Shown here one piece after another: positions 9,556 to 29,266 of a stretch of 64,000 bases of DNA (position 1 is the stretch's first letter; each line of letters opens with the position of its first letter). The position numbers were made by a program, and so were the translations under genes. Under the pieces are notes generated by a model. That model saw only the letters and a list, made by a program, of their open reading frames with translations. It had not been told where the DNA came from and ran no database searches. The DNA is from Escherichia phage W22: the sequence record PV159336. One strand, 5' to 3'.

Positions 9556-10021
9556 TTTAACTACAATCAAGGTGTCTGATCTACCTGTAACAACATCTGT
9601 TTCAGACACAGATTATTTTGTAACAGATCAATCGGGCATCACTAAGAAAACATCATTACGTGTTCTTCTTGCGGGTGCTGGTGTTACACGAAATCGTCTT
9701 TCTGCAAGGGGTACTGTTACAAACACCCTAGCTTTAGATATTAGTACGGCAGAGTATTTCTCTGCCACTTTATCTAGTCCAACTTGCAGTATTTCATTTA
9801 GTAATGTTCCAGTTACAACTAACATTGTTCAAAACTTTACTCTATCCCTACGTCAAGGAAGTGGAGCAAATAAAGTAACGTGGCCTCAATCTGTTAAATG
9901 GAGTTTTGGTCGCGCTCCTGTTTTGAGTTATAAACAGGGAGCTACAGATATTTTTGAATTTGTTAGTTATGATAATGGAGCTACCTGGATAGGTAGTTTA
10001 GTGATGGCAGGAGTGATTTAA
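9548..10021 (+). CDS. tail fiber-related protein with conserved N-terminal anchor motif
   Basis: N-terminus (TTIKVSDLPVTTSVSDTDYFVTDQSGITKKTS) parallels N-terminus of the EEP fiber at 15074. Confidence 0.4.
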   Translation: MADLTTIKVSDLPVTTSVSDTDYFVTDQSGITKKTSLRVLLAGAGVTRNRLSARGTVTNTLALDISTAEYFSATLSSPTCSISFSNVPVTTNIVQNFTLSLRQGSGANKVTWPQSVKWSFGRAPVLSYKQGATDIFEFVSYDNGATWIGSLVMAGVI

Positions 10022-12897: not shown

Positions 12898-12905
12898 GGA
12901 AAATA

Positions 12906-15065: not shown

Positions 15066-15073
15066 GAGTAAAA

Positions 15074-15988
15074 ATGTCAACTACAATTACTAATTTACCC
15101 GAAACATCAAAAGTTAATGGTTCAGATTACCTGGTTTTAGATCAATCTGATAAAACTGTTAAAAGCACAGTTTCCAACTTTCTTACTGACACTGGGGTGG
15201 TTAAAGATTACACTCGTCCTAATATCCGTCAGTTGATCCGCGACCGTGAGGAAGCATTGATCGGAAACAAGGTTCGCTTTGTAACATGGAACACTCAAGG
15301 ATATAACAGTGTGTACAAGTATTATGGAAAAGACTTCGCTAACCAACAACGTGTAACAGACTTGACAGAGTGGTTCCTTCGCATAGGGGCTGATTTTGTG
15401 GGATCACAAGAAGTCTGGTCTGTGCCAGATCAACCGGATAGATTCTTCGCACAATATCCGTATATTTCTGCTTTCCAGTCTATCTCTCTTTGGGAATCAT
15501 CGCTAGGACGCCGCTACGGAAACCTGGCAGTAGCTACACGCGCTTTGAACAACAGTACGTTTAAGATTTATGACTCTCAGCCTATCCCTGGTGACACCGA
15601 TAAGGAACTCCGTTCATATATCCGAACGGAAATGACGGTAGCAGGAACGACCATCGCAATCTACGTCACACACTTGTCTCTTAATCAGACACGCATAAAT
15701 GAAGAGATTGCCGAGTTGGGGCTGGCAATGCAGAACGACACAGCGACGCACATCGTTGTCATGGGGGACTGGAACACTAACACTGATACTGACTTCGCGC
15801 CGTTCACCGATCATGGATTCACTATGGTGAACAGGTTCGGTGAATTTAACACCAACAACGTTGGCAATACCTGGTATCTCGACCGAATTTTCTACAAAGG
15901 TTTCTCGGCTGAAGATGATCGCGGGGTCTTTGATACTCCTGTGTCACTTGGCGACCACAAGGCTCTCTATGTAGATCTGGTAATTTAA
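15074..15988 (+). CDS. tail fiber protein with endonuclease/exonuclease/phosphatase (EEP) domain
   Basis: Tail-fiber N-terminal anchor motif, then EEP-type motifs RFVTWNTQG, VVMGDWNT and C-terminal GDHKALYVDL. Confidence 0.6.
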   Translation: MSTTITNLPETSKVNGSDYLVLDQSDKTVKSTVSNFLTDTGVVKDYTRPNIRQLIRDREEALIGNKVRFVTWNTQGYNSVYKYYGKDFANQQRVTDLTEWFLRIGADFVGSQEVWSVPDQPDRFFAQYPYISAFQSISLWESSLGRRYGNLAVATRALNNSTFKIYDSQPIPGDTDKELRSYIRTEMTVAGTTIAIYVTHLSLNQTRINEEIAELGLAMQNDTATHIVVMGDWNTNTDTDFAPFTDHGFTMVNRFGEFNTNNVGNTWYLDRIFYKGFSAEDDRGVFDTPVSLGDHKALYVDLVI

Positions 15989-16000
15989 GGGGAAAGGAAA

Positions 16001-17308
16001 ATGAATTTACATACAATTGACGCAAACATACTTGACATGCAGGGGCTGCCTTTGGATCTCCGCATCAACAAGATGCTGTCAGACATCAACCGCCTGTATC
16101 AACGAGGGCAGGTTATACTGCTTACTAAGTTTGCTGATTTAGGTCTTGCTGACACCGAAGCTACAATGGCAAATGTGTTCGCTCGTATGCCTAATAACAC
16201 CATCTTTATGACTGAAGTTTACCGTGGTGTTCACACCAATTTCGACATGCCGACACTAATCAACGGTGCGAGATTATCTGGACGGTTGATTGTCTATGGT
16301 TCGTCCGAGTCAAGTAACAAATTGACTGCATACTTTCAGCAAGAAACAGGTTTGTGGACACGCCACCTGAACAAAGGTGCTGCCACAAATTATACCGATA
16401 CGGGATGGCATAAGATTGAAGTTCATGGTTTGCAAGAGGATCTAACCACAAGCTCTGTGACTAATCTTGAAAACAAGCTGTCAAACCTAAAAACGCCAGG
16501 CATCTATTACATAGCTGGTAGCATAATGTCACAATTCACAGACGTGCCCACAACAGGTTCAGGAGCATCACTGTGTGAAGTGACCTATATTCACCATCTG
16601 GCTGACACAATACAGACTTTGCGTACCAACGGGGTTGCTCAGACCGGGTGGCGTAGACAAATTTCTAACAATGGAACTGTTGGGGAATGGAAACAGGAGT
16701 TTGTTAGTGGCTCTCCTATGAATAGTTCGTCTACTATAAGTTTCGCCGGGGGAACTGTTTCTGGGACATTAACTACAAGGACGCTCCAACCTGAAAAAAC
16801 AGCAACCCACAACATCGGTTATGCTTCTGCTGCATACAATCAAGCGTATTTTCAGAATGCGCCCACAGTTGTTTCTGATGTGAATTATAAACTATTCATA
16901 GACGATATTCCTGACGATGTTTTGGATGCGTGGAGCACGGTTAACTACTATCAGTGGAAAATGAAAACTGCTGTTGCGGAGAAAGGTGAGGAAAAAGCGC
17001 GCCTTCATGTAGGTGTCCTTGCACAAGAAATCAAAGAGAAGTTTGAAGCTGCTGGTTTGGATGCAACCAAGTATGGCATTCTTATCTATGATTGTTGGGA
17101 AGCTGTTGAGGCTGTTGAATATAAACCTGCTGTATACGATCCAGATACTAACGAATTAATCTCTGAAGAAGTTCAGGCTGTTGAAGGACGTGAAGCAGGT
17201 GAGATCTGGATGGTGCGAATGGAAGAGTGTCTTGCTTTAGAAGCGGCACTGATGCGCCGGACTACAAAACGACTGGAAGATCGCATGGCTGCTCTGGAAG
17301 GCAAGTAA
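16001..17308 (+). CDS. tail fiber protein with C-terminal intramolecular chaperone (S74-like) domain
   Basis: 435 aa; C-terminal ARLHVGVLAQEIKEKFEAAGLD...YGIL segment resembles autoproteolytic chaperone domain of endosialidase-type fibers. Confidence 0.5.
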   Translation: MNLHTIDANILDMQGLPLDLRINKMLSDINRLYQRGQVILLTKFADLGLADTEATMANVFARMPNNTIFMTEVYRGVHTNFDMPTLINGARLSGRLIVYGSSESSNKLTAYFQQETGLWTRHLNKGAATNYTDTGWHKIEVHGLQEDLTTSSVTNLENKLSNLKTPGIYYIAGSIMSQFTDVPTTGSGASLCEVTYIHHLADTIQTLRTNGVAQTGWRRQISNNGTVGEWKQEFVSGSPMNSSSTISFAGGTVSGTLTTRTLQPEKTATHNIGYASAAYNQAYFQNAPTVVSDVNYKLFIDDIPDDVLDAWSTVNYYQWKMKTAVAEKGEEKARLHVGVLAQEIKEKFEAAGLDATKYGILIYDCWEAVEAVEYKPAVYDPDTNELISEEVQAVEGREAGEIWMVRMEECLALEAALMRRTTKRLEDRMAALEGK

Positions 17309-17311
17309 ATA

Positions 17312-17331
17312 AAGCCCCGCTTCGGCGGGGA
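17312..17331 (+). terminator. terminator-like hairpin after fiber gene
   Basis: CCCCGC-TTCG-GCGGGG perfect hairpin; weak T-tract on + strand. Confidence 0.4.
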
Positions 17332-17403
17332 ATTATAAAGGTACTATCATGGTCTTCATTACGATTCACACAAACTATGTCCTGCAAGCGCATGTCATCG
17401 CCA

Positions 17404-17414
17404 TGTGATAAAAT
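17404..17414 (+). promoter_or_regulatory. extended -10 promoter-like element (TGTGATAAAAT)
   Basis: TG-n-TAAAAT identical to the element at 5950-5960; lies in 230-bp intergenic region before baseplate J operon. Confidence 0.3.
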
Positions 17415-17539
17415 GATGAAAACATATCGTAGCAGGGTTAATCTTGTCTTTAGTTACTATCGTACTAACTCAAAATGTTGTCACTACCACTGCAAACCCC
17501 TCCAAAGAGGGGCTTACTTAGAAAAACAAAGAGGTTGTT

Positions 17540-17689
17540 ATGAACGAAATGTTCTCCCAAGGCGGTATTGCCCCAGGTACTACTGCCATTAGTCTTAGTG
17601 CTGCTGTACTTGTGCATTCAGCGGGTTCTGTAGACCTTGGGGAATTAGCTGTATATCGTGATTTAAAAAGTAATGAGAACGCACTATGA
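17540..17689 (+). CDS. small hypothetical protein (49 aa), not in ORF track
   Basis: ATG at 17540 preceded by AAAGAGG; stop TGA overlaps ATG of next gene (ATGA coupling). Confidence 0.3.
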   Translation: MNEMFSQGGIAPGTTAISLSAAVLVHSAGSVDLGELAVYRDLKSNENAL

Positions 17690-17931
17690 GAAAATTTTTA
17701 ATAGGTATGTTCTGTACATATCCTGATAATAAAGTCAGTTCTACTAAAGTTTGGAATGCTATTGGTATGATTGTTATGTCCAGTATGTTTATTTATTTGG
17801 GAATTGATAAAGAAATTCCTGAATGGATGGGCTGGGCTTTTGTTTTTATGATCACACCATCTAGACTAATGAAGAATTTAATAGATTTACGTTGGGGCAG
17901 ATCACCTGCCCCTGATAAGGAGGATAACTAA
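17686..17931 (+). CDS. small membrane protein
   Basis: 81 aa with hydrophobic segments (IGMIVMSSMFIYLGI, WMGWAFVFMI); coupled to downstream baseplate gene. Confidence 0.4.
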   Translation: MRKFLIGMFCTYPDNKVSSTKVWNAIGMIVMSSMFIYLGIDKEIPEWMGWAFVFMITPSRLMKNLIDLRWGRSPAPDKEDN

Positions 17932-19418
17932 TGGCAGATTATGGTTTAACAGATGCTGGTTTTGTCATTCCAACATTTGATGATATTCTAAATAATTATA
18001 TGACAGCATTGAAAAACACTTTCGGTGCAGATACAGCTACATCTGAAGATACTGTCTTTGGTCAACTGTTTCGTATTATTGCATATACAGATTACACCCT
18101 TTGGGAAGGTATGCAAGGTGTTTACAATACCCAAACCTTAGATGGTGCAGAAGGTATTTACCTTGATGAAATCTTCTCTAAAAGAGGTTTTTATCGTAAA
18201 GCTGCTTCTGCTGGTAGTGGTTATGCTTATGTTAAATCTAACAATAAGGCAGCTTGGACTTATGAACTAAGCACAGATGTTTATTTTAATGCCGATAACG
18301 ATTTGACATATTATGTCAGTGCACCAACAATGTTGAATGCTAAGATTGGAGCATATACCATTTCTAAAGCAAACGCAACAGCTTCTGGTGAAACTTCTAT
18401 TACTTTCTACATTCAAAGTGCTATTGATGGTGGTCTTAACAGTAAAACACTAAGTCCTAGCAATACAAACTTTATTGTAGATCTCACGAATTTCATTAAA
18501 GCTAACGTATCAACAACAGATCGTGCTTTAGTATGGAATGATGCTAGTAATGTTTACATGGGTTATAATCCAGAAGATAATGTTAACCCAATAGGTCTAG
18601 TAACACCAGTGAAATTTTATGCATCCATTGCAATTGGTACAAAATGGAGTGAAATTCCAGTTACGTGTTCAGACGTTGGTTATAATCCAGTAGGTACAGA
18701 AAGTATTACAGGTATTTCTTCAACGTTTACAGGCTTTTTAGATACAGGTAACTTCTATCCGTTCTCTCCAGGTACAGATGTTGAAACAGATGCAGAATTC
18801 CGTTCTCGTTTCAATGATAATATGGATGAAGCTAATGCTGCTACTCGTGCTGCTATTGTTAAAGCTCTATTACTGACAGATGGTGTGACAAAGGTTAAGA
18901 TTTATGATAACCCTACACTACACGATCAGGAACATGCTCCAGCTATGACATTCCAGACTATTGTGTATGGTGGTACAGCAGAAGAAGTTGCACAGGTTAT
19001 TTATAATACTAAGCCTATTAACACCTTAACTTATGGTACGACAGCAATTACTATCATAACAGAAGATGGTGGTCAAGAAGTAATTCGTTTTTCTCCTGGT
19101 GATAATGCGGAATACTCACTTAAACTGGTATATCAAACTGGCAATGGTAGTGTGTTAAGTACAACAGAAAGGGAAAATATTGTTTCTGCTCTTGCAAACT
19201 TACAGGCTTACTTTGAATTAGGCTCAACAGTAACTAACGATCAGATAAAAGGTGTAATTTATTCTGCACTTGCGTTCGGACGCTTGACTTCTCTCCGTGT
19301 TTATGTTAAACTTAATACTGAGGATGACAGTAAATATAATGAGGGAGATATTACTCCAGCGTACAATGTTGTACCATCCTTTGACCTTGATAATATTTCC
19401 TACGAGTACGGAGTCTAA
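17931..19418 (+). CDS. baseplate J-like protein (gpJ/gp6 family)
   Basis: 495 aa; N-terminal region (GFVIPTFDDILNNYMTALKNTFGAD...LDGAEGIYLDEIFSKRG) resembles baseplate J family. Confidence 0.5.
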   Translation: MADYGLTDAGFVIPTFDDILNNYMTALKNTFGADTATSEDTVFGQLFRIIAYTDYTLWEGMQGVYNTQTLDGAEGIYLDEIFSKRGFYRKAASAGSGYAYVKSNNKAAWTYELSTDVYFNADNDLTYYVSAPTMLNAKIGAYTISKANATASGETSITFYIQSAIDGGLNSKTLSPSNTNFIVDLTNFIKANVSTTDRALVWNDASNVYMGYNPEDNVNPIGLVTPVKFYASIAIGTKWSEIPVTCSDVGYNPVGTESITGISSTFTGFLDTGNFYPFSPGTDVETDAEFRSRFNDNMDEANAATRAAIVKALLLTDGVTKVKIYDNPTLHDQEHAPAMTFQTIVYGGTAEEVAQVIYNTKPINTLTYGTTAITIITEDGGQEVIRFSPGDNAEYSLKLVYQTGNGSVLSTTERENIVSALANLQAYFELGSTVTNDQIKGVIYSALAFGRLTSLRVYVKLNTEDDSKYNEGDITPAYNVVPSFDLDNISYEYGV

Positions 19419-19420
19419 AA

Positions 19421-20050
19421 ATGGCAGTGAGTGTTGACCATGTGACAACGTGGGATAGTATCAATGAAGATGTTAAAGACCTACTGATTGAAGATTTTAA
19501 ATCTTCTCCGAACATTGTCAAACTACTCTATATCATTTCTAGCGAAAAACAAAAGATAGATCAGGCAATGATCTATCTTGCCAAACACCGCTTAATCTCT
19601 ACTGCAACTGGTAAGTATTTAGATCTTATTGGTGAAGAGATGGGGATGGAAAGAAATGGTGCTACGGATGAAGAGTATCGTACAATATTAAAAATCAGGG
19701 CTTATCGTGTTGCGTCTTCTGGTACGCGAGATGATATCATTGATATGTTCGCTCGTTTTACAGGAACAGAAAAAGAAACGATTAATACATACGTTGGATT
19801 AAATAAAACATTCGACGTATTCTTTTATAATTTGTGTCTACAATCCGATCAGGCAGTAGCACAGTTACTTAACGTTTTCCCGATCCTAAGTAGTTATCGC
19901 TTAGGTGCGAAAGCGGGTGCAGCCTTTGGTTTCACTTCCTACTATGCCACAAAGCCACCTCATGGTATAGGTGGTTTAGGTTCTCTTTACACAGAGGCTG
20001 AAGGAGATGATACAGGGCGAATGACTATGCTGATAGCTCAAATAGAATAA
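19421..20050 (+). CDS. putative baseplate/tail protein (gpI-like position)
   Basis: 209 aa ORF directly after J-like gene; synteny only. Confidence 0.3.
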   Translation: MAVSVDHVTTWDSINEDVKDLLIEDFKSSPNIVKLLYIISSEKQKIDQAMIYLAKHRLISTATGKYLDLIGEEMGMERNGATDEEYRTILKIRAYRVASSGTRDDIIDMFARFTGTEKETINTYVGLNKTFDVFFYNLCLQSDQAVAQLLNVFPILSSYRLGAKAGAAFGFTSYYATKPPHGIGGLGSLYTEAEGDDTGRMTMLIAQIE

Positions 20051-20063
20051 GGAGTTACCCTTA

Positions 20064-21044
20064 ATGGCAAAGCCACAATACTACCCTGACTGGGCGACAC
20101 AAACAGTAACCCTCCCAGGAACGGGAAACACAAACAAGATTAGACCAAAAGAAACCATCCGTAATGTTGGTATGGACTTTGGTCAGATTATGACTTGTGA
20201 AGAAATGAACTGGATCTTAAACAATATTGGGTCTTGGATTCGCTATATGCAAGATGAATTCTTCCCAACATTGCCTACTACATATCTTCCTATAGTCGGT
20301 ACTAAAATTACAATGGCAGGTGATGCTACAGGTGAAGTTACATGGAATGGTAATGCTGCTGTAACATTATCTATTCAAGTCGTAGATAACAGCCATAATC
20401 ACTTATCAGCTAACATTACAGACGCAACATCAAACCAAGTTGTAGGGAATGTCCTTGTTAAACGTGATAATGGTGGTGCTATCTATGCAGGTGATATTTA
20501 CACTTGTGGTACAGGTGCTACAGATCCTGCAACATTATTTTTTAGAAACTATAATGGACAAACAGTAGGCAATATGTCTTCTGAACCAGGTGCAGGTGGT
20601 CAACTCTATATTTATAGAATAAATCCATCTACTGGAGGAACATCTTGTGGAGTTCGTTTGTATGATGCAGGTTATGTTTTAATAGACAACCCTCGCTCTA
20701 ATTCTGGTCAAGATACTGGCAATGGTAATGCTCTTGTAAGATTAGATTATCTTAACTCAAGACTAAACTCATTGCAAAGCACACTGCAAAATAACATTAA
20801 CAACGTTAATAGTAACTTGCAAGGCCAAATTAATAACATTAACAATAGAGTTTCTTCTGTTGTGTCTTCTATCCGTCTAGGTACACGTATTAAAGCTGGT
20901 GTATCTGAATCTCCTTTCTATGCTGGTCACGTGATCACAGGCTGGGGTTTTGGTGATAAGAAAGAACTTCGTGGTGCTTGGTATTGGTCTGCTCCGCTAC
21001 AATATTACATTAATGGTAGGTGGATAACAGTAACCAACGTTTAG
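20064..21044 (+). CDS. tail fiber protein
   Basis: 326 aa, Gly/Asn-rich with NINNVNSNLQGQINNINNR coiled segment; followed by putative assembly chaperone. Confidence 0.45.
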   Translation: MAKPQYYPDWATQTVTLPGTGNTNKIRPKETIRNVGMDFGQIMTCEEMNWILNNIGSWIRYMQDEFFPTLPTTYLPIVGTKITMAGDATGEVTWNGNAAVTLSIQVVDNSHNHLSANITDATSNQVVGNVLVKRDNGGAIYAGDIYTCGTGATDPATLFFRNYNGQTVGNMSSEPGAGGQLYIYRINPSTGGTSCGVRLYDAGYVLIDNPRSNSGQDTGNGNALVRLDYLNSRLNSLQSTLQNNINNVNSNLQGQINNINNRVSSVVSSIRLGTRIKAGVSESPFYAGHVITGWGFGDKKELRGAWYWSAPLQYYINGRWITVTNV

Positions 21045-21056
21045 TAAGGAGAACAC

Positions 21057-21608
21057 ATGAAAAAAGATGTTATTTACACTGGCTTTGAACTATATCAACC
21101 AGAATTGACAGAAGAAAATGTCATGTATCTTTCAATAGGTGCTGGTTTTCTTAAAGATAAAGATGGTAATGATTGGTACGAAATTCAGAAATATTTATCC
21201 AAAAATTACCCTGATGCCTATTTCTTAACTCTAGATCACAACAATGTAGTTGTTGCAGTTACGAAAGATGTTTCTACATATTTTCCTGCTGGTCTTACTG
21301 TTCTTGTAACGTATAATGTTCCAGATAAAATAGAAGAAGAAAGCAATCTAGGATCGTGGAAATATGATAATGGTAAGTTTATTTCTTATAATGGGTTTGC
21401 AATAGAAGATGCCAACCTTAAAATGGAAAAAGAATTAACTTGGGCCACAAATCAAATATCTGCAATGCAAGATTTAGAGGAATTACAAGGTTTATCTGAA
21501 GAACAAAAAGATTGGTTAGGAAAAGTTAAACTATATCGTGCAACACTGATTCAAATTAACGTTGAAGATGCACCTAATATAACTTGGCCTACAAGACCTA
21601 AGAAATAG
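21057..21608 (+). CDS. putative tail fiber assembly chaperone
   Basis: 183 aa acidic protein immediately after fiber gene; synteny only. Confidence 0.3.
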   Translation: MKKDVIYTGFELYQPELTEENVMYLSIGAGFLKDKDGNDWYEIQKYLSKNYPDAYFLTLDHNNVVVAVTKDVSTYFPAGLTVLVTYNVPDKIEEESNLGSWKYDNGKFISYNGFAIEDANLKMEKELTWATNQISAMQDLEELQGLSEEQKDWLGKVKLYRATLIQINVEDAPNITWPTRPKK

Positions 21609-21617
21609 GGGTAATGT

Positions 21618-21959
21618 ATGGAGCTAACAGAAGTATGGGATATCGCTAAAGAGGCGATTATCCCTCTTATTGGTGTAATCTGGGTGGTCTTCAAACAGAA
21701 GATAGATGATATGGCAAGTGATTTGGATAAAATGGAAGACAAATACCGTGAACTAGAAAAGAAGTTGGTGTTTGTTGAATCCACTTATGCTACCAAAGCA
21801 GAACTTGCTCAAATGCTTAACCAGATCAACTCTACATTAATGGCAAATAATACTGCCTTAGAACAGAAGATTGAAAAAATAATGGATTTAAAAAATGCTC
21901 CTGTTCAATTAATGCTAGAGGAGATTACGAAGCGCACACAAAGTAAGGACAAAAATTAA
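21618..21959 (+). CDS. hypothetical coiled-coil protein
   Basis: 113 aa, N-terminal hydrophobic helix then coiled coil. Confidence 0.35.
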   Translation: MELTEVWDIAKEAIIPLIGVIWVVFKQKIDDMASDLDKMEDKYRELEKKLVFVESTYATKAELAQMLNQINSTLMANNTALEQKIEKIMDLKNAPVQLMLEEITKRTQSKDKN

Positions 21960-24373
21960 TGGCGAATTTTCCAACATATCCTGCTACGACACTAGAACAA
22001 GGTGTTGATCTGGTTATATTCTCGTCTAACCAGATGCATGATGTTATTAACGGGGATGCTACAGCAACTGTAGAAACCGAAACAGGTTTAATACCTACAC
22101 TGCGTAAAGCACTTGTTGATAACTTCTTCTTTAAGAGTCCTGTTGCTTGGTCAGCAGGATCAACTGAAACTGTATTTAACCAGTTACGTTATTTTGAAAA
22201 CGGTATCTTGAGTGGGTACTACTATGCCCCATCTGCCACTACTGCGAACCCTGTACCTATGCAGGGTACACCTGTAGGAGACAGTAACTGGACTCTGTAC
22301 GCTCTTAAAACTGAACAGTTAGCTTCAGATGTGTATCCTTGGTATTTTAAAGGTGCTACAGGATATGAAACAGAAATCAGTCCTCCTTATATCTTTGATA
22401 ATGCTATTGTCACCATTAACGGTGTAATTCAGATTCAAGGTGAAGCATTTACTATCAAAGATAGTAAAATTATTCTGGCAGAACCATTAGGTTTAGATCC
22501 GTCTACTGGGCTACCTAACAAATTGTTTGCTTTTATTGGTAAAACAACAGCCTCTACTTCTTACGTAGAGAAAAACCTTTTGTCATCTACCACTGGTGCA
22601 GCAATGGTTGGTCTTCCATCTGGAGGCAACCTGTTACAAGCTCAATACTTTGTAACGCCTGAACAGTTTGGTGCAATTGGTGATGGAGTTACCGATGATA
22701 CTCAAGCAATTTTAAAAACCATTACTTTCGCTAACACGAATAACATTCAAGTACGTGCAGATAAGAATTATAGATTCACAAGCTCAATTGCTATGTCTGG
22801 TATTCGTTGGTATGGTGGTACATTCACTGGTAACGGTGGAACAATGATTTCTACTGTGTCCTGTTGGATTGAAAACGTTCGCTTTGAAAAATGTTATGTT
22901 AAGATGTTAGGTGGGGATTGCCGATTCTATCGTAATATCTTCTCCAACGCAACATCTACAGCAGCATTCTTAATGCAAGCGATGACAAGTGAAGGTACGT
23001 TGGACTTCAGTTACAACGAAATGTATGGTTGTAAATATGCGATCCTGCAACAAGGTACTGGAGAAGTAATGACCTATGGGCGTTACTCTAACAACTACAT
23101 TCACGATATCAAAGGTGATGCTATTGAACTTAACGTAGTTCAAAAACACTACACTGAAGGTTTGATCATCGAGAATAACCACATTGCTAACGTAGATGCT
23201 TCTGGACAAGGGGCAAACTGGGGTATTGGTATTGGTGTAGCAGGTAGTGGCCCATATGGTGTTGATGCTCCTGATTCACAATATGTACGTAACTTCAGTA
23301 TCGTTGGGAATAGGGTTTACAATTGCCGTCAATGTTTACACGTTGAAATGGGTAAAAACTTTACGATACGTGATAATGAAGTTTATCCTAACACAGCAGT
23401 TTCAACAGGTACAGGTTTAACTACTTGTGGTGTTGCATTATACGGATGCCAAGACTTTGAAGTTGATGGTTTAACTGGTTATCTGCTTAATGATCCGTCT
23501 GTTTCAACACGCATGGTCTTTATTGACTGGGGTGTTAACAGTGGAAGATATGCGGGGCCACCAATTAACTTTACAATTAAGAATTTGGATATTCCAGAAT
23601 CTTCAATTGAAATTGCAACGGCTGGATCAGATGCCTGGGAAAACTCTACAATTGTTAGTAACATCAATTGTAATGTTTTTAAATGGCGTGGACTACCATC
23701 TAGCTCTACCTTTAATAATATTCGTTGCCGTAGTATTGACTTTATTGGTCAACACGGAAGCGGAGAAGGAAGTGGTGGCGGTTTCTATACTCGCAGCCAA
23801 TTCACTTATATGAAGTGGGTAGGATGTACAGCACTTAGCGGAGATGAAACAACAGTTTCTTTTGCTAAAATCTACACGGATCGTTGCGATCAGGTTGGAA
23901 ATAACTTTGGTGTTCCAACTGCTGTTGATGGTACAGGTCATCGTGGGCCAGTCTTAACCACTATTTCTGAACAATATTTTACAGATTATGATGAATTCCC
24001 AGGTGGGCGTGACTTCCCTACTGGAACAGTTATTCATTGTGCAAGCGGTAAAAAACACGTTGTTACAGTAGGTGGTGCTTTCTTTAGTAATAATGAGAAA
24101 ATAAAAGCAACTGTTACAGGTCAAACCTATCTACAGTCTAATGCTTTAAACTGGGCTAGTAATGGCTACGCTAAAGCGGCAGGTACTAAGATTGTTATTC
24201 CAGGTGCAGGAGCAAATGGTGGCGATCTTGTGACAACTATAGCACGTGCTACGTATGTGACAAATAGTTTGTACACAATAGATATTGCAGATCCAATTGT
24301 AACACCTACAGCAGAGAATACACAAATTAAAGCTCTGAACCCTGTTACTTTTGTTACTGTCAATAATGCTTAA
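21959..24373 (+). CDS. tailspike with pectate-lyase-like right-handed beta-helix (putative polysaccharide depolymerase)
   Basis: 804 aa; motif VTPEQFGAIGDGVTDDTQAIL characteristic of pectate_lyase_3-type tailspikes. Confidence 0.6.
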   Translation: MANFPTYPATTLEQGVDLVIFSSNQMHDVINGDATATVETETGLIPTLRKALVDNFFFKSPVAWSAGSTETVFNQLRYFENGILSGYYYAPSATTANPVPMQGTPVGDSNWTLYALKTEQLASDVYPWYFKGATGYETEISPPYIFDNAIVTINGVIQIQGEAFTIKDSKIILAEPLGLDPSTGLPNKLFAFIGKTTASTSYVEKNLLSSTTGAAMVGLPSGGNLLQAQYFVTPEQFGAIGDGVTDDTQAILKTITFANTNNIQVRADKNYRFTSSIAMSGIRWYGGTFTGNGGTMISTVSCWIENVRFEKCYVKMLGGDCRFYRNIFSNATSTAAFLMQAMTSEGTLDFSYNEMYGCKYAILQQGTGEVMTYGRYSNNYIHDIKGDAIELNVVQKHYTEGLIIENNHIANVDASGQGANWGIGIGVAGSGPYGVDAPDSQYVRNFSIVGNRVYNCRQCLHVEMGKNFTIRDNEVYPNTAVSTGTGLTTCGVALYGCQDFEVDGLTGYLLNDPSVSTRMVFIDWGVNSGRYAGPPINFTIKNLDIPESSIEIATAGSDAWENSTIVSNINCNVFKWRGLPSSSTFNNIRCRSIDFIGQHGSGEGSGGGFYTRSQFTYMKWVGCTALSGDETTVSFAKIYTDRCDQVGNNFGVPTAVDGTGHRGPVLTTISEQYFTDYDEFPGGRDFPTGTVIHCASGKKHVVTVGGAFFSNNEKIKATVTGQTYLQSNALNWASNGYAKAAGTKIVIPGAGANGGDLVTTIARATYVTNSLYTIDIADPIVTPTAENTQIKALNPVTFVTVNNA

Positions 24374-24376
24374 TTA

Positions 24377-24399
24377 AAAGGGGCGAAAGCCCCTTTATA
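24377..24399 (+). terminator. rho-independent terminator
   Basis: AAAGGGGC-GAAA-GCCCCTTT hairpin after stop. Confidence 0.5.
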
Positions 24400-24413
24400 A
24401 AAGGAGTAGTAAA

Positions 24414-26375
24414 GTGATTTTAACACGTCCAAATAGTGCCATTGCAGACATGGTAGAGTCTCGCTATAGAAAGCGTAGAAGTTTTGCAAGTGGTTTTACC
24501 TTAAGAGATGCTCGTGAAGCATTGCTCTTTGAAGCTGACGGTAACTACTATCAGTGGAAAGGCTCTCTACCTAAAGTTGTACCTGCTAACTCTACTCCTA
24601 CATCTACTGGAGGGATTTCAGATACAGCTTGGAAAAATGTGGGTAATGCAGATGACATTGCTCAAATAGAATCAGAATTAGATGCTATTGAAGCTGAAAT
24701 TGAAGATCTTAGAGAATCCATCCCAGAAGCTGGTAAATCAGCTTACCAGATTGCCGTAGACAATGGTTTCCAAGGTACTGAGACACAGTGGTTGGCTTCT
24801 TTAAAAGGTGATCCAGGTGCTCCATTAAAGCTATTAGGGACACTATCTAATACCAACCAATTACCTACAAGTGGAAACAATGCAGGGGATGCATGGATTG
24901 TAGGCGAGAATATGTATGCTTGGGATGGTACTGCTTGGAGAAAAGTAAACTCACAGGGGCCAGAAGGTAAATCTGCTTATGAAGTATGGCTTGCAGCAGG
25001 AAATGAAGGTACAGAACTAGATTATCTTGCTTCAATTAAAGGTGATAAAGGGGAGCCTGGCCCAGAGGGGCCACAAGGTGTGCCAGGTAATAATGCTAAT
25101 GGTTTTGATTACCAAGGCGCAGCTAATTCCGTTTCAGATCTTCCTTCTGCATCTCATGGAAACACATCTCAAGCATGGAGTGTTGGTACATATCTATACG
25201 TGTCAAACGGTGTAGAATGGATCAATATGGGTGCTATAGTGGGGCCAAAAGGAGATAAAGGCGACAAAGGTGATAAGGGTAACACTGGTGATTCAGCTTA
25301 TCAAGTCTGGTTAAATGCTGGTAACGTTGGTACTATTGATGAATATATTGCCTCTCTGAAAGGAGAAAAAGGTGATAAGGGAGACAAGGGTGATCAAGGT
25401 GCACAGGGTATACAAGGCTTGACGGGGCCAACTGGTGCAGGGTTGACCATTATTGACATTCTTACTAGCACTTCTGAACTACCACAAACTGGAGAAGAGG
25501 GTGATGGTTATCTAATCAATAATGAACTTTGGGTCTGGTTGCAAGGAGCCACAGAGTGGACAAATGTTGGTCGTTTAGCTGGTACTCCAATCACTGCAAA
25601 AGGACACGTTGCGTCTGCAAGTGCACTTCCTCCTACAGCTAATTACGGTGATGCTTATCTGACGGAAGATACAGGTCATCTTTACATTTACACCTATGAT
25701 GAACAAACTCAAACTGCTGAATATGTAGATATGGGTAGTTTGAAAGGTGATAAGGGTGAAAAAGGTGACGCTGGTACTAACGGTACAGACGGTGCAACTT
25801 GGATTGTTAAAACAACAGATCCAATCTCTAGTGATGGTAAACAAGGTGATTATGCCTTTAATATCTCCACTGGCGAGGTGTTCTTAAAAACATCTGCAAC
25901 TGTCTGGACTTCTCAAGGTACACTACCTAGTATCACAGATGCACCTAGTGATGGTAAGACTTATGCTCGTAAAGATGGGGCATGGGAAGAACTCACTAAT
26001 TCTGTAGATGGTCAAGATATAGTTCCAACAAAAGTAACAACTAATTTTATAGAGGTTACAGCATATACCAACAATTCTGTTACAGGCGACTGGACACCTC
26101 CAGGAACACATAACATGAATGTGTTGAATCTTACTGGTAACTCTACTATAAAAGCATGGCCTGGTGTCGAAGATAGCACAAAACCTAAACCATTCTCTGC
26201 AATAGTTTATCTTATCCAAGATGCCACTGGAGGTCATACTGTTACTTTAGATCCATCTTACAAAGTAATTGGTTCTAGTGATATTAATACAGATCCTAAC
26301 GGAGTAACAATACTACAACTAACATATTGTGGTGTTGGCGATTACGTGGATGCTATTGTTGCTAAACGCACATAA
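24414..26375 (+). CDS. tail fiber protein with collagen-like triple-helix repeats
   Basis: 653 aa, GTG start after AAAGGAG; Gly-X-Y runs (GPKGDKGDKGDKGNTGD; KGEKGDKGDKGDQGAQGIQGLTGPTGAG) and three copies of a ~25-aa motif SAYq.w...G.eGT...YLASlKGd. Confidence 0.6.
   Translation: MILTRPNSAIADMVESRYRKRRSFASGFTLRDAREALLFEADGNYYQWKGSLPKVVPANSTPTSTGGISDTAWKNVGNADDIAQIESELDAIEAEIEDLRESIPEAGKSAYQIAVDNGFQGTETQWLASLKGDPGAPLKLLGTLSNTNQLPTSGNNAGDAWIVGENMYAWDGTAWRKVNSQGPEGKSAYEVWLAAGNEGTELDYLASIKGDKGEPGPEGPQGVPGNNANGFDYQGAANSVSDLPSASHGNTSQAWSVGTYLYVSNGVEWINMGAIVGPKGDKGDKGDKGNTGDSAYQVWLNAGNVGTIDEYIASLKGEKGDKGDKGDQGAQGIQGLTGPTGAGLTIIDILTSTSELPQTGEEGDGYLINNELWVWLQGATEWTNVGRLAGTPITAKGHVASASALPPTANYGDAYLTEDTGHLYIYTYDEQTQTAEYVDMGSLKGDKGEKGDAGTNGTDGATWIVKTTDPISSDGKQGDYAFNISTGEVFLKTSATVWTSQGTLPSITDAPSDGKTYARKDGAWEELTNSVDGQDIVPTKVTTNFIEVTAYTNNSVTGDWTPPGTHNMNVLNLTGNSTIKAWPGVEDSTKPKPFSAIVYLIQDATGGHTVTLDPSYKVIGSSDINTDPNGVTILQLTYCGVGDYVDAIVAKRT
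25038..25439 (+). repeat. collagen-like Gly-X-Y triplet repeats (interrupted) inside tail fiber CDS
   Basis: Repeated GGTGATAAAGG/GGAGAAAAAGG codon units encoding G-D-K/G-E-K triplets. Confidence 0.55.
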
Positions 26376-26377
26376 TC

Positions 26378-26404
26378 AAAGCCCCTTCGGGGGCTTATTA
26401 TTTA
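26378..26404 (+). terminator. rho-independent terminator
   Basis: AAAGCCCC-TTCG-GGGGCTT hairpin followed by ATTATTT. Confidence 0.5.
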
Positions 26405-26414
26405 AGGAGATTAA

Positions 26415-29234
26415 ATGTATCCTATTCCTTTATTTATGTCAACAACATCAGCTTCAGTAGTAACAGCTACATCTATAACCACTTCCTCTATTGGTATTGC
26501 AATAGTTGGTAGTAAAAAGCAACTGACATACACAGTTTCACCGGAAGATGGTGCGTTATTTGATATAGCTTTTTCATCTTCAGATAATACCAAAATGGTT
26601 ATAGATAATAACGGTATGATGGAGTTTGTTGCTGAAGGCGGTTTTGATGCAATAATGACAGCTAAAAATAATTTAGGTGCTGTCTTAACTGATCAGTCTG
26701 GTGGCTATGCTTCAGAATTAAGTGTGTACACTGAAAGTCTGTCTGCTATGGATGCAGGAACTACTCAACAATTGGTTGCTACAATCAGTCCAGAAGGTGC
26801 TAAAGACCTTCCAGACATGGTAATTACGTACACCACAACAGATCCAGAAGTAGCTACTGTAAGCCCTACAGGATTAATAACTGCTCTTAAAGATGGCAGT
26901 TGCCGTATAGGTTGCACTGCAACTTATCAAGGAACAGTGGTGGCCTCTGATAGTTCTTATTTAGGTGTTAATGCTGTTCCTGTTATTTCTAATGTAACAG
27001 CCGTGGCAAACAGCTATGGAGACATTCGTGTTGCTTGGGATGTAGCTGATCCGCTAGATGGTGATACTTATACTGTAGAAGTATTAGATTTAAGTAATAA
27101 CAGTGTCCAGTGGACTACAACAACCACGAATACTTACGCCTACTTTGATATCTCTGACTCTATTCCTCTTTATGGGTTTGCTCCAACATACCTTAAAATT
27201 AGCGTTAAGAGCACCAAAGCAGCAGCCGTTATCTTTAATAACTCAATAGCTACAGATGATTCATTCATTAAAGAAGTTATTGTCTTTGCTGGACAAGATA
27301 ACGTAAATGCACACTTTACAGAACTATCTGGTGCAAATAAAGCAGCAATGAGTAGCACAACAGCCCGTAATGCATATGCTACGCAACGTGGTTTAGCAAA
27401 TGCTGAAGTTCTCCCGTTAAATACAGCTTCTGGATCATCAGCAGCAGATAAATATGCAGATGATAAAGCCGGAACAGGTACACCAGACAACTACTGGTAT
27501 GATCTGGATAACACAGCAGATGGGCCATGCTTAACTAACTTTATCACTAAAGTCACACCTTATGCAAGTAAGGTTAAAGCAATTATTTGGGGACAAGGTG
27601 AAAATGATGCTGTATCAGCATCTTCGACTGTTGCAGGAAGATACAGTAACACTACACGTTACCATGATGCTACGATAGCTATCTTTGATAAGATGCGTAC
27701 AATAGTTCCTGCTTCTCAAGCAAAAATTGTTTGGCAGATCCTAGGACGTTCTTATCTGTATGGTGTAGAAGTTAATGGTGTGGATTGGCAGAAATACAGA
27801 AATGTACAAAGAACCATCTCTACAGCACGTGACGATGTTATCATTGGTTCTTGGGTAGATGGTGCTGAACGTTACAGTGGTTATGTTTATGAAGAAGGTA
27901 TTGATGGTCGTATCCATTATATTTCTTCTGTATACCAGACAGCAGCTACAAAACTTGCTAAATCAGCAGCAGACGGTACAGACCTAACATCAACGTCACC
28001 TGTTTGGGTTGATATGGCTGTTCCAACTGGAGCAACAGCTACTTCCCAACCTAATCAAGATACAATCTTAGCATGGGATGCTCAAGGTTATAGTAAACAC
28101 TACTTCCGTAATATTAACGTCTTAACAGCATCTGTATTAACTGAACAAACGCTTAATACGAACAGTTATACGTTTACCTATGCAGATCAAGTAGAACAAT
28201 ATGGTTTTGCAGCAGGTACTACGATATTTGATGTTGCATATTATGACGAAGCAAATGATGTGTTATCTCCTTTAGTACGTTTTAATGTTAGCGTTACAGC
28301 AGGAAAAGTAGAAGATAAACCTGTCGTGATGGACTATGATTTGACGCAAGAAACTCTCCCATCAGATGTTAAGGTTAATGGTGGAAACTCTTTTGCTCGT
28401 GCTTCTGGAGATACACTTGTAGCCACTAACACCTTGGTTGCTCCGTTGGAGTATGTTGGCACTACCCCTGTAGGTAGACGTGTAACAGCTAACACAGCTA
28501 CACAAATTTTTGTCAACAACGCCTTAACAAGCGCAAGCCCGTGGGTAAAGACCAACTTAACTGTTGCAGCTTCATCTGATAAATCTCCGGCTGGAACTAC
28601 TGCTAATGTATTCAAATTAACTCCGACTACAACCTCTGGTAGTCATATCTTAACTGCAACATATACTAACGCGTACAACATATCTGCCGGACGTAACTGG
28701 TCTGCCTCTGTTTTCTTGAAAGCGAACGGGATTACTAAGGCCAAACTAAGATTAAAAGCAGGGACTGAAGTTAATGAAGGTACTTTTGATTTAGCAGCAG
28801 GTACATTCACAGGAAGTGAAGCTAATATTATATCTATGGGCAACGGTTGGTATCGTGCTATTCTGCATAAAACAGGGATAGCCAAACAGTCCTCCATAAG
28901 TTTTGAAATAATTGCCTTGGATGCTACTGGTGCGGAGATTTTCGCTGGGGATGGTACTAGTAACCTTGCAGTTTGGTTGCCACAGCTTGAAGGTGCTTCT
29001 ACAGGAGAAACATCAAAAGCTGGATCGCCTTATGTCTGCACATATCCTGGAAATTTAGGAGGAGTATCCTTCACTATACCAAGGAACGGACATACTGGTG
29101 TGGATGTTTACTATTCCAACGGAGACGTTGTTCGTGACGTATTCTCTGGTACGGCATCTACTTGGACAATAAACTACTCCAGCTTGTACGATTGGGGATC
29201 AGTCTTTATTACAGGTTTGAAATATTACGACTAA
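26415..29234 (+). CDS. tail fiber protein with SGNH/GDSL-type esterase-like domain
   Basis: 939 aa; blocks FAGQDNVNAHF (GxSN-like block I), IIWGQGENDA (GxND block III), DGRIHY (DxxH block V); flanked by beta-rich regions. Confidence 0.5.
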   Translation: MYPIPLFMSTTSASVVTATSITTSSIGIAIVGSKKQLTYTVSPEDGALFDIAFSSSDNTKMVIDNNGMMEFVAEGGFDAIMTAKNNLGAVLTDQSGGYASELSVYTESLSAMDAGTTQQLVATISPEGAKDLPDMVITYTTTDPEVATVSPTGLITALKDGSCRIGCTATYQGTVVASDSSYLGVNAVPVISNVTAVANSYGDIRVAWDVADPLDGDTYTVEVLDLSNNSVQWTTTTTNTYAYFDISDSIPLYGFAPTYLKISVKSTKAAAVIFNNSIATDDSFIKEVIVFAGQDNVNAHFTELSGANKAAMSSTTARNAYATQRGLANAEVLPLNTASGSSAADKYADDKAGTGTPDNYWYDLDNTADGPCLTNFITKVTPYASKVKAIIWGQGENDAVSASSTVAGRYSNTTRYHDATIAIFDKMRTIVPASQAKIVWQILGRSYLYGVEVNGVDWQKYRNVQRTISTARDDVIIGSWVDGAERYSGYVYEEGIDGRIHYISSVYQTAATKLAKSAADGTDLTSTSPVWVDMAVPTGATATSQPNQDTILAWDAQGYSKHYFRNINVLTASVLTEQTLNTNSYTFTYADQVEQYGFAAGTTIFDVAYYDEANDVLSPLVRFNVSVTAGKVEDKPVVMDYDLTQETLPSDVKVNGGNSFARASGDTLVATNTLVAPLEYVGTTPVGRRVTANTATQIFVNNALTSASPWVKTNLTVAASSDKSPAGTTANVFKLTPTTTSGSHILTATYTNAYNISAGRNWSASVFLKANGITKAKLRLKAGTEVNEGTFDLAAGTFTGSEANIISMGNGWYRAILHKTGIAKQSSISFEIIALDATGAEIFAGDGTSNLAVWLPQLEGASTGETSKAGSPYVCTYPGNLGGVSFTIPRNGHTGVDVYYSNGDVVRDVFSGTASTWTINYSSLYDWGSVFITGLKYYD

Positions 29235-29237
29235 TAA

Positions 29238-29266
29238 AAAAGGAGCCATTAGGCTCCTTTTCTTTT
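29238..29266. terminator. bidirectional terminator between convergent late (+) and early (-) modules
   Basis: AAAAAGGAGCC-ATTA-GGCTCCTTTTCTTTT hairpin with A-run upstream and T-run downstream. Confidence 0.6.

What the first reader, a model, noticed from the sequence alone, without database searches (positions are those of the whole stretch)
21959..24373. Tailspike with pectate-lyase-type beta-helix signature (polysaccharide depolymerase)
The motif FGAIGDGVTDDTQAIL is the classic N-terminal signature of pectate_lyase_3-type right-handed beta-helix tailspikes that degrade capsule or O-antigen. Together with the EEP, SGNH, collagen-like and S74-chaperone fibers this phage carries an unusually large set of distinct receptor-binding or enzymatic tail proteins in ~19 kb.
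Basis: partly seen in the sequence, partly recalled or inferred. Interest (0 to 1): 0.45.

Follow-up and report, generated by a model that had tools for sequence, protein, structure and literature searches.

The report
Phi92-type colanic-acid-degrading tailspike (known)
This gene encodes a phage tail spike that cuts colanic acid, the slime layer of E. coli; it is 99% identical to phage phi92 gp150, whose crystal structure and enzyme activity are already published, so it is correctly spotted but ordinary.

Summary
The ORF at 21959..24373 (+, 804 aa) is real, and FGAIGDGVTDDTQAIL lies at aa 237-252 (nt 22667-22714). The protein is 796/804 identical to Escherichia phage phi92 gp150, the "colanidase tailspike", and sits in the same place between the gp149 and gp151 orthologs. 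About 55 Justusliebigvirus genomes carry it at 95-99.5% DNA identity. Residues 180-804 match the crystal structures 6E0V (apo) and 6E0W (complex with one colanic acid repeat unit). My AlphaFold2 model (pLDDT >90 over about 230-650) retrieves 6E0V first and then right-handed parallel beta-helix enzymes and tailspikes. Four points need refining. The substrate is colanic acid, not capsule or O-antigen. The published activity is hydrolysis, not lyase action. The protein does not reach Pfam's threshold for the pectate-lyase-3 family (14.4 vs 27 bits); only the N-terminal cap motif resembles it, and that motif is not conserved across colanidase homologs. The large set of tail enzymes is the known "Swiss Army knife" hallmark of phi92-like phages. 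Already known; low interest. A more unusual feature lies outside the finding: the neighbouring variable slot (15074..17308) holds an EEP plus S74-fiber cassette found in no other deposited phi92-like genome.

The parts
21959..24373 (+). Colanidase tailspike gene, ortholog of phi92 gene 150 (804 aa)
   Evidence: The ORF is listed. It is 796/804 aa identical to phi92 gp150, matches PHROG 6117 at E 2e-270, and is 95-99.5% identical at DNA level in 55 phage records.
21945..21949 (+). Shine-Dalgarno-like AAGGA, 9 nt before the ATG; the ATG overlaps the TAA stop of the upstream gp149-like ORF (TAATG at 21957-21961)
   Evidence: Read directly from the sequence. The phi92 annotators mark an AGGA ribosome-binding site at the same place. 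Translational coupling is inferred.
21959..22312 (+). N-terminal anchor module (aa 1-118)
   Evidence: aa 12-126 match residues 15-130 of chain 9cuy_g, a 793-aa fiber in the phage phiTE baseplate structure, at E 1e-18. The module is shared at 50-65% identity with proteins carrying unrelated C-terminal domains. The monomer model has low pLDDT here.
22313..22579 (+). Connector beta-domain (aa 119 to about 207)
   Evidence: pLDDT is 76-91 over aa 121-190. It gives weak matches to connector regions of other phage fibers and adaptors (23sh_r, 8es4_G, 8vbx_R, 7y22_e, 9k4a_A; E 1e-4 to 4e-3). Module boundaries come from the blastp ranges.
22667..22714 (+). FGAIGDGVTDDTQAIL motif (aa 237-252), N-terminal cap of the beta-helix
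   Evidence: Sub-threshold Pfam matches to PF12708 and PF12218 cover this stretch. It is variable among colanidase homologs apart from F237 and A250.
22664..23923 (+). Right-handed parallel beta-helix body (aa about 236-655), catalytic domain
   Evidence: pLDDT is 90-98 with short strands throughout. Foldseek puts 6e0v_A first (E 5e-86), then AlgE4/AlgE6, GH87 glucanases and the CBA120, Sf6, HK620 and Det7 tailspikes.
23117..23128 (+). D387 and E390 in the conserved GDAIELN segment; candidate catalytic or substrate-binding carboxylates
   Evidence: D387 is invariant and E390 is present in 27 of 28 colanidase-body homologs. The catalytic role is inferred and was not tested.
23345..23347 (+). 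E463 in the conserved RQxxHxE segment; candidate catalytic carboxylate
   Evidence: E463 is invariant in 28 of 28 homologs; R457 and H461 are each present in 27 of 28. The role is inferred.
24068..24334 (+). C-terminal tailspike Ig-like domain (aa 704-792)
   Evidence: Pfam PF20745 TSP_Ig-like, E 2.5e-14, 53.7 bits against a cut-off of 27.9.
24377..24396 (+). G+C-rich hairpin AAAGGGGC-GAAA-GCCCCTTT just after the stop codon, followed by AAGGAG and the GTG start of the gp151-like gene at 24414
   Evidence: Read directly from the sequence. It does not meet the terminator scan's T-run criterion. Similar hairpins follow the next two fiber genes (26379-26396 and 29238-29261).

Best explanation
The gene encodes the colanidase tailspike of a phi92-like myovirus (genus Justusliebigvirus). 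It is most likely a homotrimeric, virion-attached enzyme. The N-terminal anchor (aa 1-118) and connector (aa 119 to about 207) fix it to the baseplate fiber network. The beta-helix body (aa about 236-655) binds colanic acid, the exopolysaccharide of E. coli and related enterobacteria, and hydrolyses its backbone, probably using conserved carboxylates (D387, E390, E463). A C-terminal Ig-like domain (aa 704-792) caps the spike. By cutting through the colanic acid layer the phage reaches its receptors on mucoid or stressed cells. It is one blade of the multivalent receptor-binding apparatus typical of this genus. Shown here: gene, identity, synteny, fold, module boundaries and residue conservation. 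Taken from published work on the 99%-identical ortholog: the substrate and the hydrolytic activity. Inferred: trimer state, catalytic residues and attachment site.
For: The protein is 796/804 aa identical to phi92 gp150, which is annotated 'colanidase tailspike' in the phi92 record, and has the same neighbours gp147-gp151. aa 180-804 match PDB 6E0V/6E0W, 'Bacteriophage Phi92 gp150', with 8 substitutions. [quoted passage not shown] 6E0W is the complex with one colanic acid repeat unit (title quoted in PMC13604113). PMC13450770 states that gp150 is a colanic acid-degrading enzyme hydrolysing the beta-1,4 Glc-Fuc linkage, citing Xu et al. 2025. PHROG 6117 'colanic acid degradation' matches at E 2e-270. 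The AF2 model has mean pLDDT 84 and an all-strand body, and the fold search returns beta-helix enzymes and tailspikes. None of the 8 substitutions falls on a family-invariant column, and D387, E390 and E463 are intact. The N-terminal anchor is homologous to a baseplate-bound fiber of phage phiTE (PMC11972413).
Against: No experiment exists on this exact variant. A437V lies two residues from the conserved D439, in the loop GPYGxDxPDS, although position 437 is variable in the family. The primary biochemical paper (Xu et al. 2025) and Schwarzer et al. 2012 were not held in the library, so activity and virion presence are cited second-hand. The position of gp150 in the phi92 virion is unresolved: its AlphaFold3 model did not fit the 'fiber II' density (PMC13450770). 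The monomer model cannot show trimerisation.
Confidence: 0.93

Rival explanations
1. It is a beta-helix tailspike, but the eight substitutions relative to phi92 gp150 have shifted its specificity to a different polysaccharide (a K capsule or O-antigen).
For: Tailspike specificity can change with few substitutions. A437V lies in a conserved loop near D439 and Y433.
Against: Identity is 99% over the whole body, and all eight changes are conservative or at positions that vary within the family. The gene is the most conserved receptor-binding protein across the genus (98%; PMC12210895), which fits the invariant colanic acid structure and not variable K or O antigens. The hypervariable slot of the cluster lies elsewhere (15074..17308).
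Confidence: 0.03
2. It acts as a polysaccharide lyase (beta-elimination at the glucuronic acid of the colanic acid side chain) and not as a hydrolase, as the 'pectate lyase' label would suggest.
For: Colanic acid contains a uronic acid. Some beta-helix tailspikes are lyases (the K5 lyase is mentioned). Fold neighbours include an alginate epimerase/lyase (8ja4).
Against: Published characterisation of the ortholog reports hydrolysis of the Glc-Fuc backbone linkage (PMC13450770), and 6E0W is described as a hydrolase structure (PMC13604113). The pectate-lyase Pfam match is sub-threshold and limited to the cap. The conserved carboxylates D387, E390 and E463 fit a glycosidase.
Confidence: 0.03
3. 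It is a binding-only receptor-binding protein, or a non-virion soluble enzyme released at lysis, and not an active virion-attached spike.
For: The gp150 model did not fit any resolved fiber density in phi92 (PMC13450770). PHROG files the family under 'moron, auxiliary metabolic gene and host takeover'. Stand-alone bacterial copies without the anchor exist (P0016, Enterobacter, 594 aa).
Against: The N-terminal 118 aa are homologous to a fiber anchor modelled in a baseplate cryo-EM structure (9CUY). The gene lies inside the baseplate/fiber operon and its start overlaps the stop of the upstream gene. The same catalytic body is found behind P22-type, T7-type and TSP1-type virion anchors in other phages.
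Confidence: 0.02

Closest known systems
Escherichia phage phi92 gp150, colanidase tailspike (PDB 6E0V apo, 6E0W with one colanic acid repeat unit; GenBank CBY99579.1)
   Same: Same length (804 aa) with 796 identical residues. Same genomic position between gp149 and gp151. Same domain order: anchor, connector, beta-helix, Ig-like domain.
   Different: Eight substitutions (window to phi92): I282V, I304M, A437V, S528N, A555S, D676A, D685E, N711D. None is at a family-invariant position.
'Colanic acid-degrading proteins' of Phapecoctavirus and other phages (e.g. Escherichia phage ph0011, P0006; PHROG 6117)
   Same: Homologous beta-helix body and C-terminal domain, 47-57% identity from about aa 189-208 to the end. 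D387, E390 and E463 are conserved.
   Different: They carry different N-terminal anchors: a shorter one, or TSP1/gp66-type (PF18668), P22 head-binding (PF09008) or T7 fiber (PF03906) domains. The GDG..TDDT cap motif is mostly absent.
Pfam PF12708 (Pectate_lyase_3, now Pect-lyase_RHGA_epim): rhamnogalacturonase A and mannuronan C-5 epimerase type beta-helices
   Same: Right-handed parallel beta-helix. The N-terminal cap motif matches profile positions 6-64. The AlgE4 and AlgE6 A-modules are the best non-self structural neighbours.
   Different: The whole-protein score of 14.4 bits is below the 27-bit cut-off. Identity to structural neighbours is 10-15%. The substrate and reaction differ.
O-antigen-specific tailspikes of P22, Sf6, HK620, Det7 and CBA120 TSP1-4
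   Same: The same working principle: a trimeric beta-helix endoglycosidase on the virion that digests a surface glycan to reach the cell. They are found as fold neighbours.
   Different: No detectable sequence similarity in the body (9-13% identity in the structural alignments). They act on serotype-specific O-antigens, whereas colanic acid is a common exopolysaccharide.
Long tail fiber of Pectobacterium phage phiTE (PDB 9CUY/9MJN chain g)
   Same: The N-terminal anchor is homologous: aa 12-126 against residues 15-130, E 1e-18. In parallel, the gp147-like short fiber of this window matches the phiTE short tail fiber, chain c.
   Different: The remainder of the phiTE fiber is an extended beta-helical fiber with no colanidase body. 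That chain g is the 'LTF' of the paper is my inference, by elimination (PMC11972413).

Membership tests
phi92 gp150-type colanidase tailspikes (PHROG 6117) | Full-length sequence homology to gp150 | tested here: met
   796/804 identical to phi92 gp150. PHROG 6117 matches at E 2e-270 over aa 172-801. PDB 6E0V matches at 1422 bits.
phi92 gp150-type colanidase tailspikes (PHROG 6117) | Conserved position in the baseplate/fiber gene cluster (after gp147-gp148-gp149, before gp151) | tested here: met
   The gene order in the window matches the phi92 and SD2 annotations.
phi92 gp150-type colanidase tailspikes (PHROG 6117) | Right-handed parallel beta-helix body with a C-terminal Ig-like domain | tested here: met
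   AF2 model with pLDDT >90 over about 230-650. Foldseek top hit 6e0v_A at E 5e-86. PF20745 matches at E 2.5e-14.
phi92 gp150-type colanidase tailspikes (PHROG 6117) | Family-conserved polar and acidic residues intact (D387, E390, Y433, R457, H461, E463) | tested here: met
   These are invariant or at least 90% conserved in 28 homologs and all are present in the window protein. Their catalytic role was not tested.
phi92 gp150-type colanidase tailspikes (PHROG 6117) | Hydrolysis of colanic acid | not testable with these tools
   Reported for the phi92 ortholog (PMC13450770 citing Xu et al. 2025; the 6E0W complex). Inferred here from 99% identity.
Pfam PF12708 Pectate_lyase_3 / Pect-lyase_RHGA_epim | Score at or above Pfam's gathering threshold (27 bits) | tested here: not met
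   14.4 bits, E 0.034; only aa 236-295 match profile positions 6-64 of 213.
Pfam PF12708 Pectate_lyase_3 / Pect-lyase_RHGA_epim | N-terminal cap motif (F-G-A-x-G-D-G-x-T-D-D-T-x-A-I) | tested here: met
   Present at aa 237-252. It is conserved in only about a third of colanidase-body homologs.
Pectin-lyase-fold superfamily (right-handed parallel beta-helix) | Beta-helix fold shared with solved members | tested here: met
   Foldseek probability 1.00 to AlgE4/AlgE6, GH87 glucanases, and the Sf6, HK620, Det7 and CBA120 tailspikes.
Polysaccharide lyases (beta-elimination mechanism) | Lyase chemistry on a uronate-containing substrate | not testable with these tools
   The literature on the ortholog reports hydrolysis. 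Nothing found here supports lyase chemistry.
Virion-attached tailspike | N-terminal domain homologous to a structurally located baseplate-binding anchor | tested here: met
   aa 12-126 match 9cuy_g of the phiTE baseplate at E 1e-18.
Virion-attached tailspike | Homotrimer present in purified virions | not testable with these tools
   The monomer prediction cannot show it. The location of gp150 in phi92 cryo-EM maps is unresolved.

The most novel reading that the evidence does not exclude
The N-terminal anchor of gp150 is homologous to the phiTE long-tail-fiber anchor. According to the phiTE paper, that anchor binds the outer baseplate wedge and forms a helical 'rip-cord' bundle with the C-terminus of the sheath initiator. 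The gp147-like fiber matches the phiTE short fiber in parallel. If this carries over, the colanidase spike of phi92-like phages docks directly on the wedge and sheath initiator (gp145/gp139). It would then form the proximal part of one of the still unassigned fiber densities, so colanic acid engagement could feed directly into the contraction trigger. That would bear on the open question of where gp150 sits in the phi92 virion. This reading concerns the whole genus and not this window in particular.
Probability: 0.2. Interest if true: 0.35.

Novelty: already known. Interest (0 to 1): 0.1.

Why it matters
It matters little as a discovery. The protein is a near-identical copy of a tailspike whose structure (6E0V/6E0W), substrate and activity are published, and it is present in more than 50 sequenced relatives. 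Its practical value is annotation. It identifies the window as a Justusliebigvirus (phi92-like) genome and fixes the gene-by-gene map of the tail cluster. It also shows that colanic acid degradation is a conserved, not a variable, blade of this phage's multivalent adsorption apparatus. Host-range differences between isolates should therefore be sought in the variable slots (15074..17308 and 26415..29234), not here.

Tried and rejected
(1) Pfam assignment to Pectate_lyase_3 is rejected at family level, because the match is sub-threshold and covers only the cap.

(2) I tried to read the primary papers. Schwarzer et al. 2012 (PMC3457257) is not held. Xu et al. 2025 is not in the library. Both are cited only through papers that quote them.

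(3) I looked for model coordinates in the scripting sandbox, to measure distances between the candidate carboxylates. They are not available there, so retaining and inverting geometry could not be told apart.

(4) The terminator scan did not call the hairpin after the gene. I report it only as a hairpin read from the sequence.

(5) The SGNH claim for a neighbouring gene gave only a sub-threshold SASA hit, and no Pfam hit at all for the 958-aa gp141-like protein.

(6) I considered whether the eight substitutions could mean a new specificity. I rejected this because all lie at family-variable or conservatively substituted positions.
Full report
**Observation.** The window contains an ATG-to-stop ORF at exactly 21959..24373 on the + strand, encoding 804 aa. 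The quoted motif FGAIGDGVTDDTQAIL is at aa 237-252 (nt 22667-22714). A six-frame regex scan finds it once in the 64 kb. The ATG overlaps the TAA stop of the upstream 113-aa ORF (TAATG) and is preceded by AAGGA at a 9-nt spacing. A G+C-rich hairpin (24377-24396) follows the stop codon, and the next gene starts at 24414.

**What it is.** Megablast of the gene against 50,697 phage records finds 55 records at 95-99.5% identity, each covering at least 80% of the gene. All are phi92-like myoviruses of the genus Justusliebigvirus (Stephanstirmvirinae). Where they are annotated, the gene is called 'colanidase tailspike' or 'colanic acid degradation'. The phi92 record itself (FR775895) calls the syntenic gene 150 'colanidase tailspike'. 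The two full-length proteins are 796/804 identical with no gaps.

Against PDB sequences, aa 180-804 match 6E0V/6E0W, 'Bacteriophage Phi92 gp150', at 1422 bits. PHROG 6117 ('colanic acid degradation') matches aa 172-801 at E 2e-270.

**Fold.** I built a 45-sequence alignment from homologs and predicted the structure. Mean pLDDT is 84, with 90-98 over aa about 230-650, and this region consists almost entirely of short strands. [quoted passage not shown] It is followed at probability 1.00 by right-handed parallel beta-helix proteins:
- the AlgE4 and AlgE6 mannuronan epimerases;
- GH87 alpha-1,3-glucanases;
- an alginate epimerase/lyase;
- the tailspikes of CBA120, Sf6, HK620, Det7 and several capsule-specific phages.

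[quoted passage not shown] PMC11126041 uses 'tailspike colanidase gp150 of E. coli phage phi92 (PDB 6E0V)' as a reference structure. I could not read the two primary papers, so activity is cited second-hand and transferred by 99% identity.

**Anatomy and likely mechanism.** BLASTP ranges against the 79 homologs give three modules.
- **Anchor, aa 1-118.** It recurs at 50-65% identity in proteins with unrelated C-terminal domains, including SGNH-type PF13472 and other beta-helices.
- **Connector, aa 119 to about 207.** It travels with the anchor in a second group of proteins.
- **Body, aa about 208 to 804.** In other phages it sits behind different virion anchors: the P22 head-binding domain PF09008, the T7 fiber N-terminus PF03906 and the TSP1/gp66 N-terminus PF18668. 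It also occurs without any anchor in bacterial genomes (e.g. a 594-aa Enterobacter protein).

The body ends in a Pfam-significant tailspike Ig-like domain (PF20745, aa 704-792).

In an alignment of 28 body homologs, D387, Y433 and E463 are invariant, and E390, R457 and H461 are at least 90% conserved. These lie in the segments GDAIELN and RQxxHxE. I infer, without testing, that D387, E390 and E463 supply the catalytic carboxylates of a glycosidase site.

The eight differences from phi92 gp150 are I282V, I304M, A437V, S528N, A555S, D676A, D685E and N711D. All fall on columns that vary within the family.

It is thus a feature of the helix cap and not of the active site.

**Family membership.** At superfamily level (pectin-lyase fold) membership is met by fold. 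At family level, Pfam PF12708 is not met: 14.4 bits against a 27-bit cut-off, covering only profile positions 6-64. 'Pectate lyase' describes the fold only, since the published chemistry is hydrolysis.

**Attachment to the virion.** The anchor (aa 12-126) matches residues 15-130 of chain g (793 aa, 'Putative tail fiber protein') of the phiTE baseplate structure 9CUY at E 1e-18. The N-terminus of the gp147-like short fiber of this window (20064..21044) matches chain c, 'Short tail fiber', of the same entry.

The phiTE paper modelled only two fibers, so chain g is by elimination its long tail fiber. Its N-terminus binds the outer wedge (wedge 2A) and forms a helical bundle with the C-terminus of the sheath initiator (PMC11972413).

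In phi92 the position of gp150 is unresolved. It was earlier speculated to be 'fiber II', but the AlphaFold3 model did not fit that density (PMC13450770). The homology suggests direct docking on the wedge and sheath initiator. This is an inference about the genus as a whole and is the only mildly novel reading I can offer.

**The 'unusually large set' of tail proteins.** The cluster 10021..29234 maps gene for gene onto phi92 gp141-gp153. It is 81-88% covered at 96-99% identity in about 50 relatives. Multivalent, co-expressed tailspikes and fibers ('Swiss Army knife') are the published hallmark of this genus (PMC11984140; PMC12210895). The BME3 paper notes that the colanidase spike is among the most conserved receptor-binding proteins: 98% within the genus, 74% in Phapecoctavirus and 37% in Seunavirus. 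EEP, S74 and collagen-like domains are confirmed in the neighbours. SGNH is supported only weakly.

**Verdict.** The feature is already known, down to crystal structures and biochemistry of a 99%-identical ortholog, so interest is low.

**Outside the finding.** The slot that holds the endosialidase gp143 in phi92 is occupied here by a two-gene cassette: an EEP-domain protein at 15074..15988 and an S74-chaperone fiber at 16001..17308. Only its first 129 nt (the conserved anchor) match any deposited phage at DNA level. Its nearest protein relatives (57%) are an adjacent gene pair, in the same order, in the unrelated 47-kb coliphages BEK2 and BEK3. That slot, not gp150, is where this phage differs from its relatives.

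Noticed in passing
window 15074..17308 (+): This is a variable receptor-binding slot. Phi92 has the endosialidase gp143 here and phage SD2 has a 783-aa protein. This phage instead has two ORFs: a 304-aa EEP-domain protein (PF03372) and a 435-aa fiber with an S74 intramolecular chaperone. Only the first 129 nt (a 43-aa anchor) match any of the 50,697 phage records by megablast. The nearest protein relatives (57% each) are an adjacent, same-order gene pair in the 47-kb coliphages BEK2 and BEK3. The EEP domain also occurs in the gp17 fibers of T7-like Citrobacter phages. It looks like a horizontally acquired cassette that is new to this genus.
   Followed up: partly
window 26415..29234 (+): A 939-aa tail protein (Big_2 domains; weak SASA/SGNH-type esterase hit at aa 374-433, E 0.034) occupies the place of the two short phi92 genes gp152 (202 aa) and gp153 (295 aa). 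Most other Justusliebigvirus genomes have the long form. Phi92 is the exception, as the BME3 paper also notes.
   Followed up: partly
window 21618..21959 (+): The gp149-like ORF (113 aa), whose stop overlaps the start of the colanidase gene, is annotated 'lipoprotein' in relatives and in PHROG 15210. It contains no cysteine at all, so it cannot carry a lipobox. It has a hydrophobic N-terminal segment followed by a coiled-coil-like sequence. The annotation looks wrong, and its function is unknown (possibly a membrane-anchored or assembly factor).
   Followed up: no
phage records MG065639, MG065645, MG065656, MG065689: Four records named 'Campylobacter phage' with host Campylobacter jejuni are 98.9% identical to this coliphage gene and share the whole tail cluster at 97%. 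A 146-kb phi92-like genome with a colanidase on Campylobacter is implausible, so the host label may reflect contamination or mislabelling.
   Followed up: no
window 24377..24396, 26379..26396, 29238..29261 (+): Each of the last three fiber genes (gp150-like, gp151-like and the 939-aa protein) is followed by a short G+C-rich hairpin with a 4-nt loop. The scan calls two of them terminator-like. They may be attenuating terminators or RNA-stability elements that set the relative dosage of the fibers.
   Followed up: no
window 20064..21044 (+): The N-terminus (aa 2-72) of the gp147-like short fiber matches the 'Short tail fiber' chain c of the phiTE baseplate structure 9CUY (E 2e-11). The colanidase anchor matches the other modelled fiber of the same entry. 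This phage and phiTE therefore share both baseplate fiber-docking modules, although their distal domains are unrelated.
   Followed up: partly
homologs P0011, P0014, P0020-P0024: A group of 1,009-1,061-aa proteins from roughly 150-kb contigs has the same anchor (70-82% identity over aa 1-212). These proteins then carry an inserted TSP1/gp66-type N-terminal domain (PF18668) and a diverged (30-34%) colanidase-like body. This points to a branched-fiber variant of the same spike in related phages.
   Followed up: no
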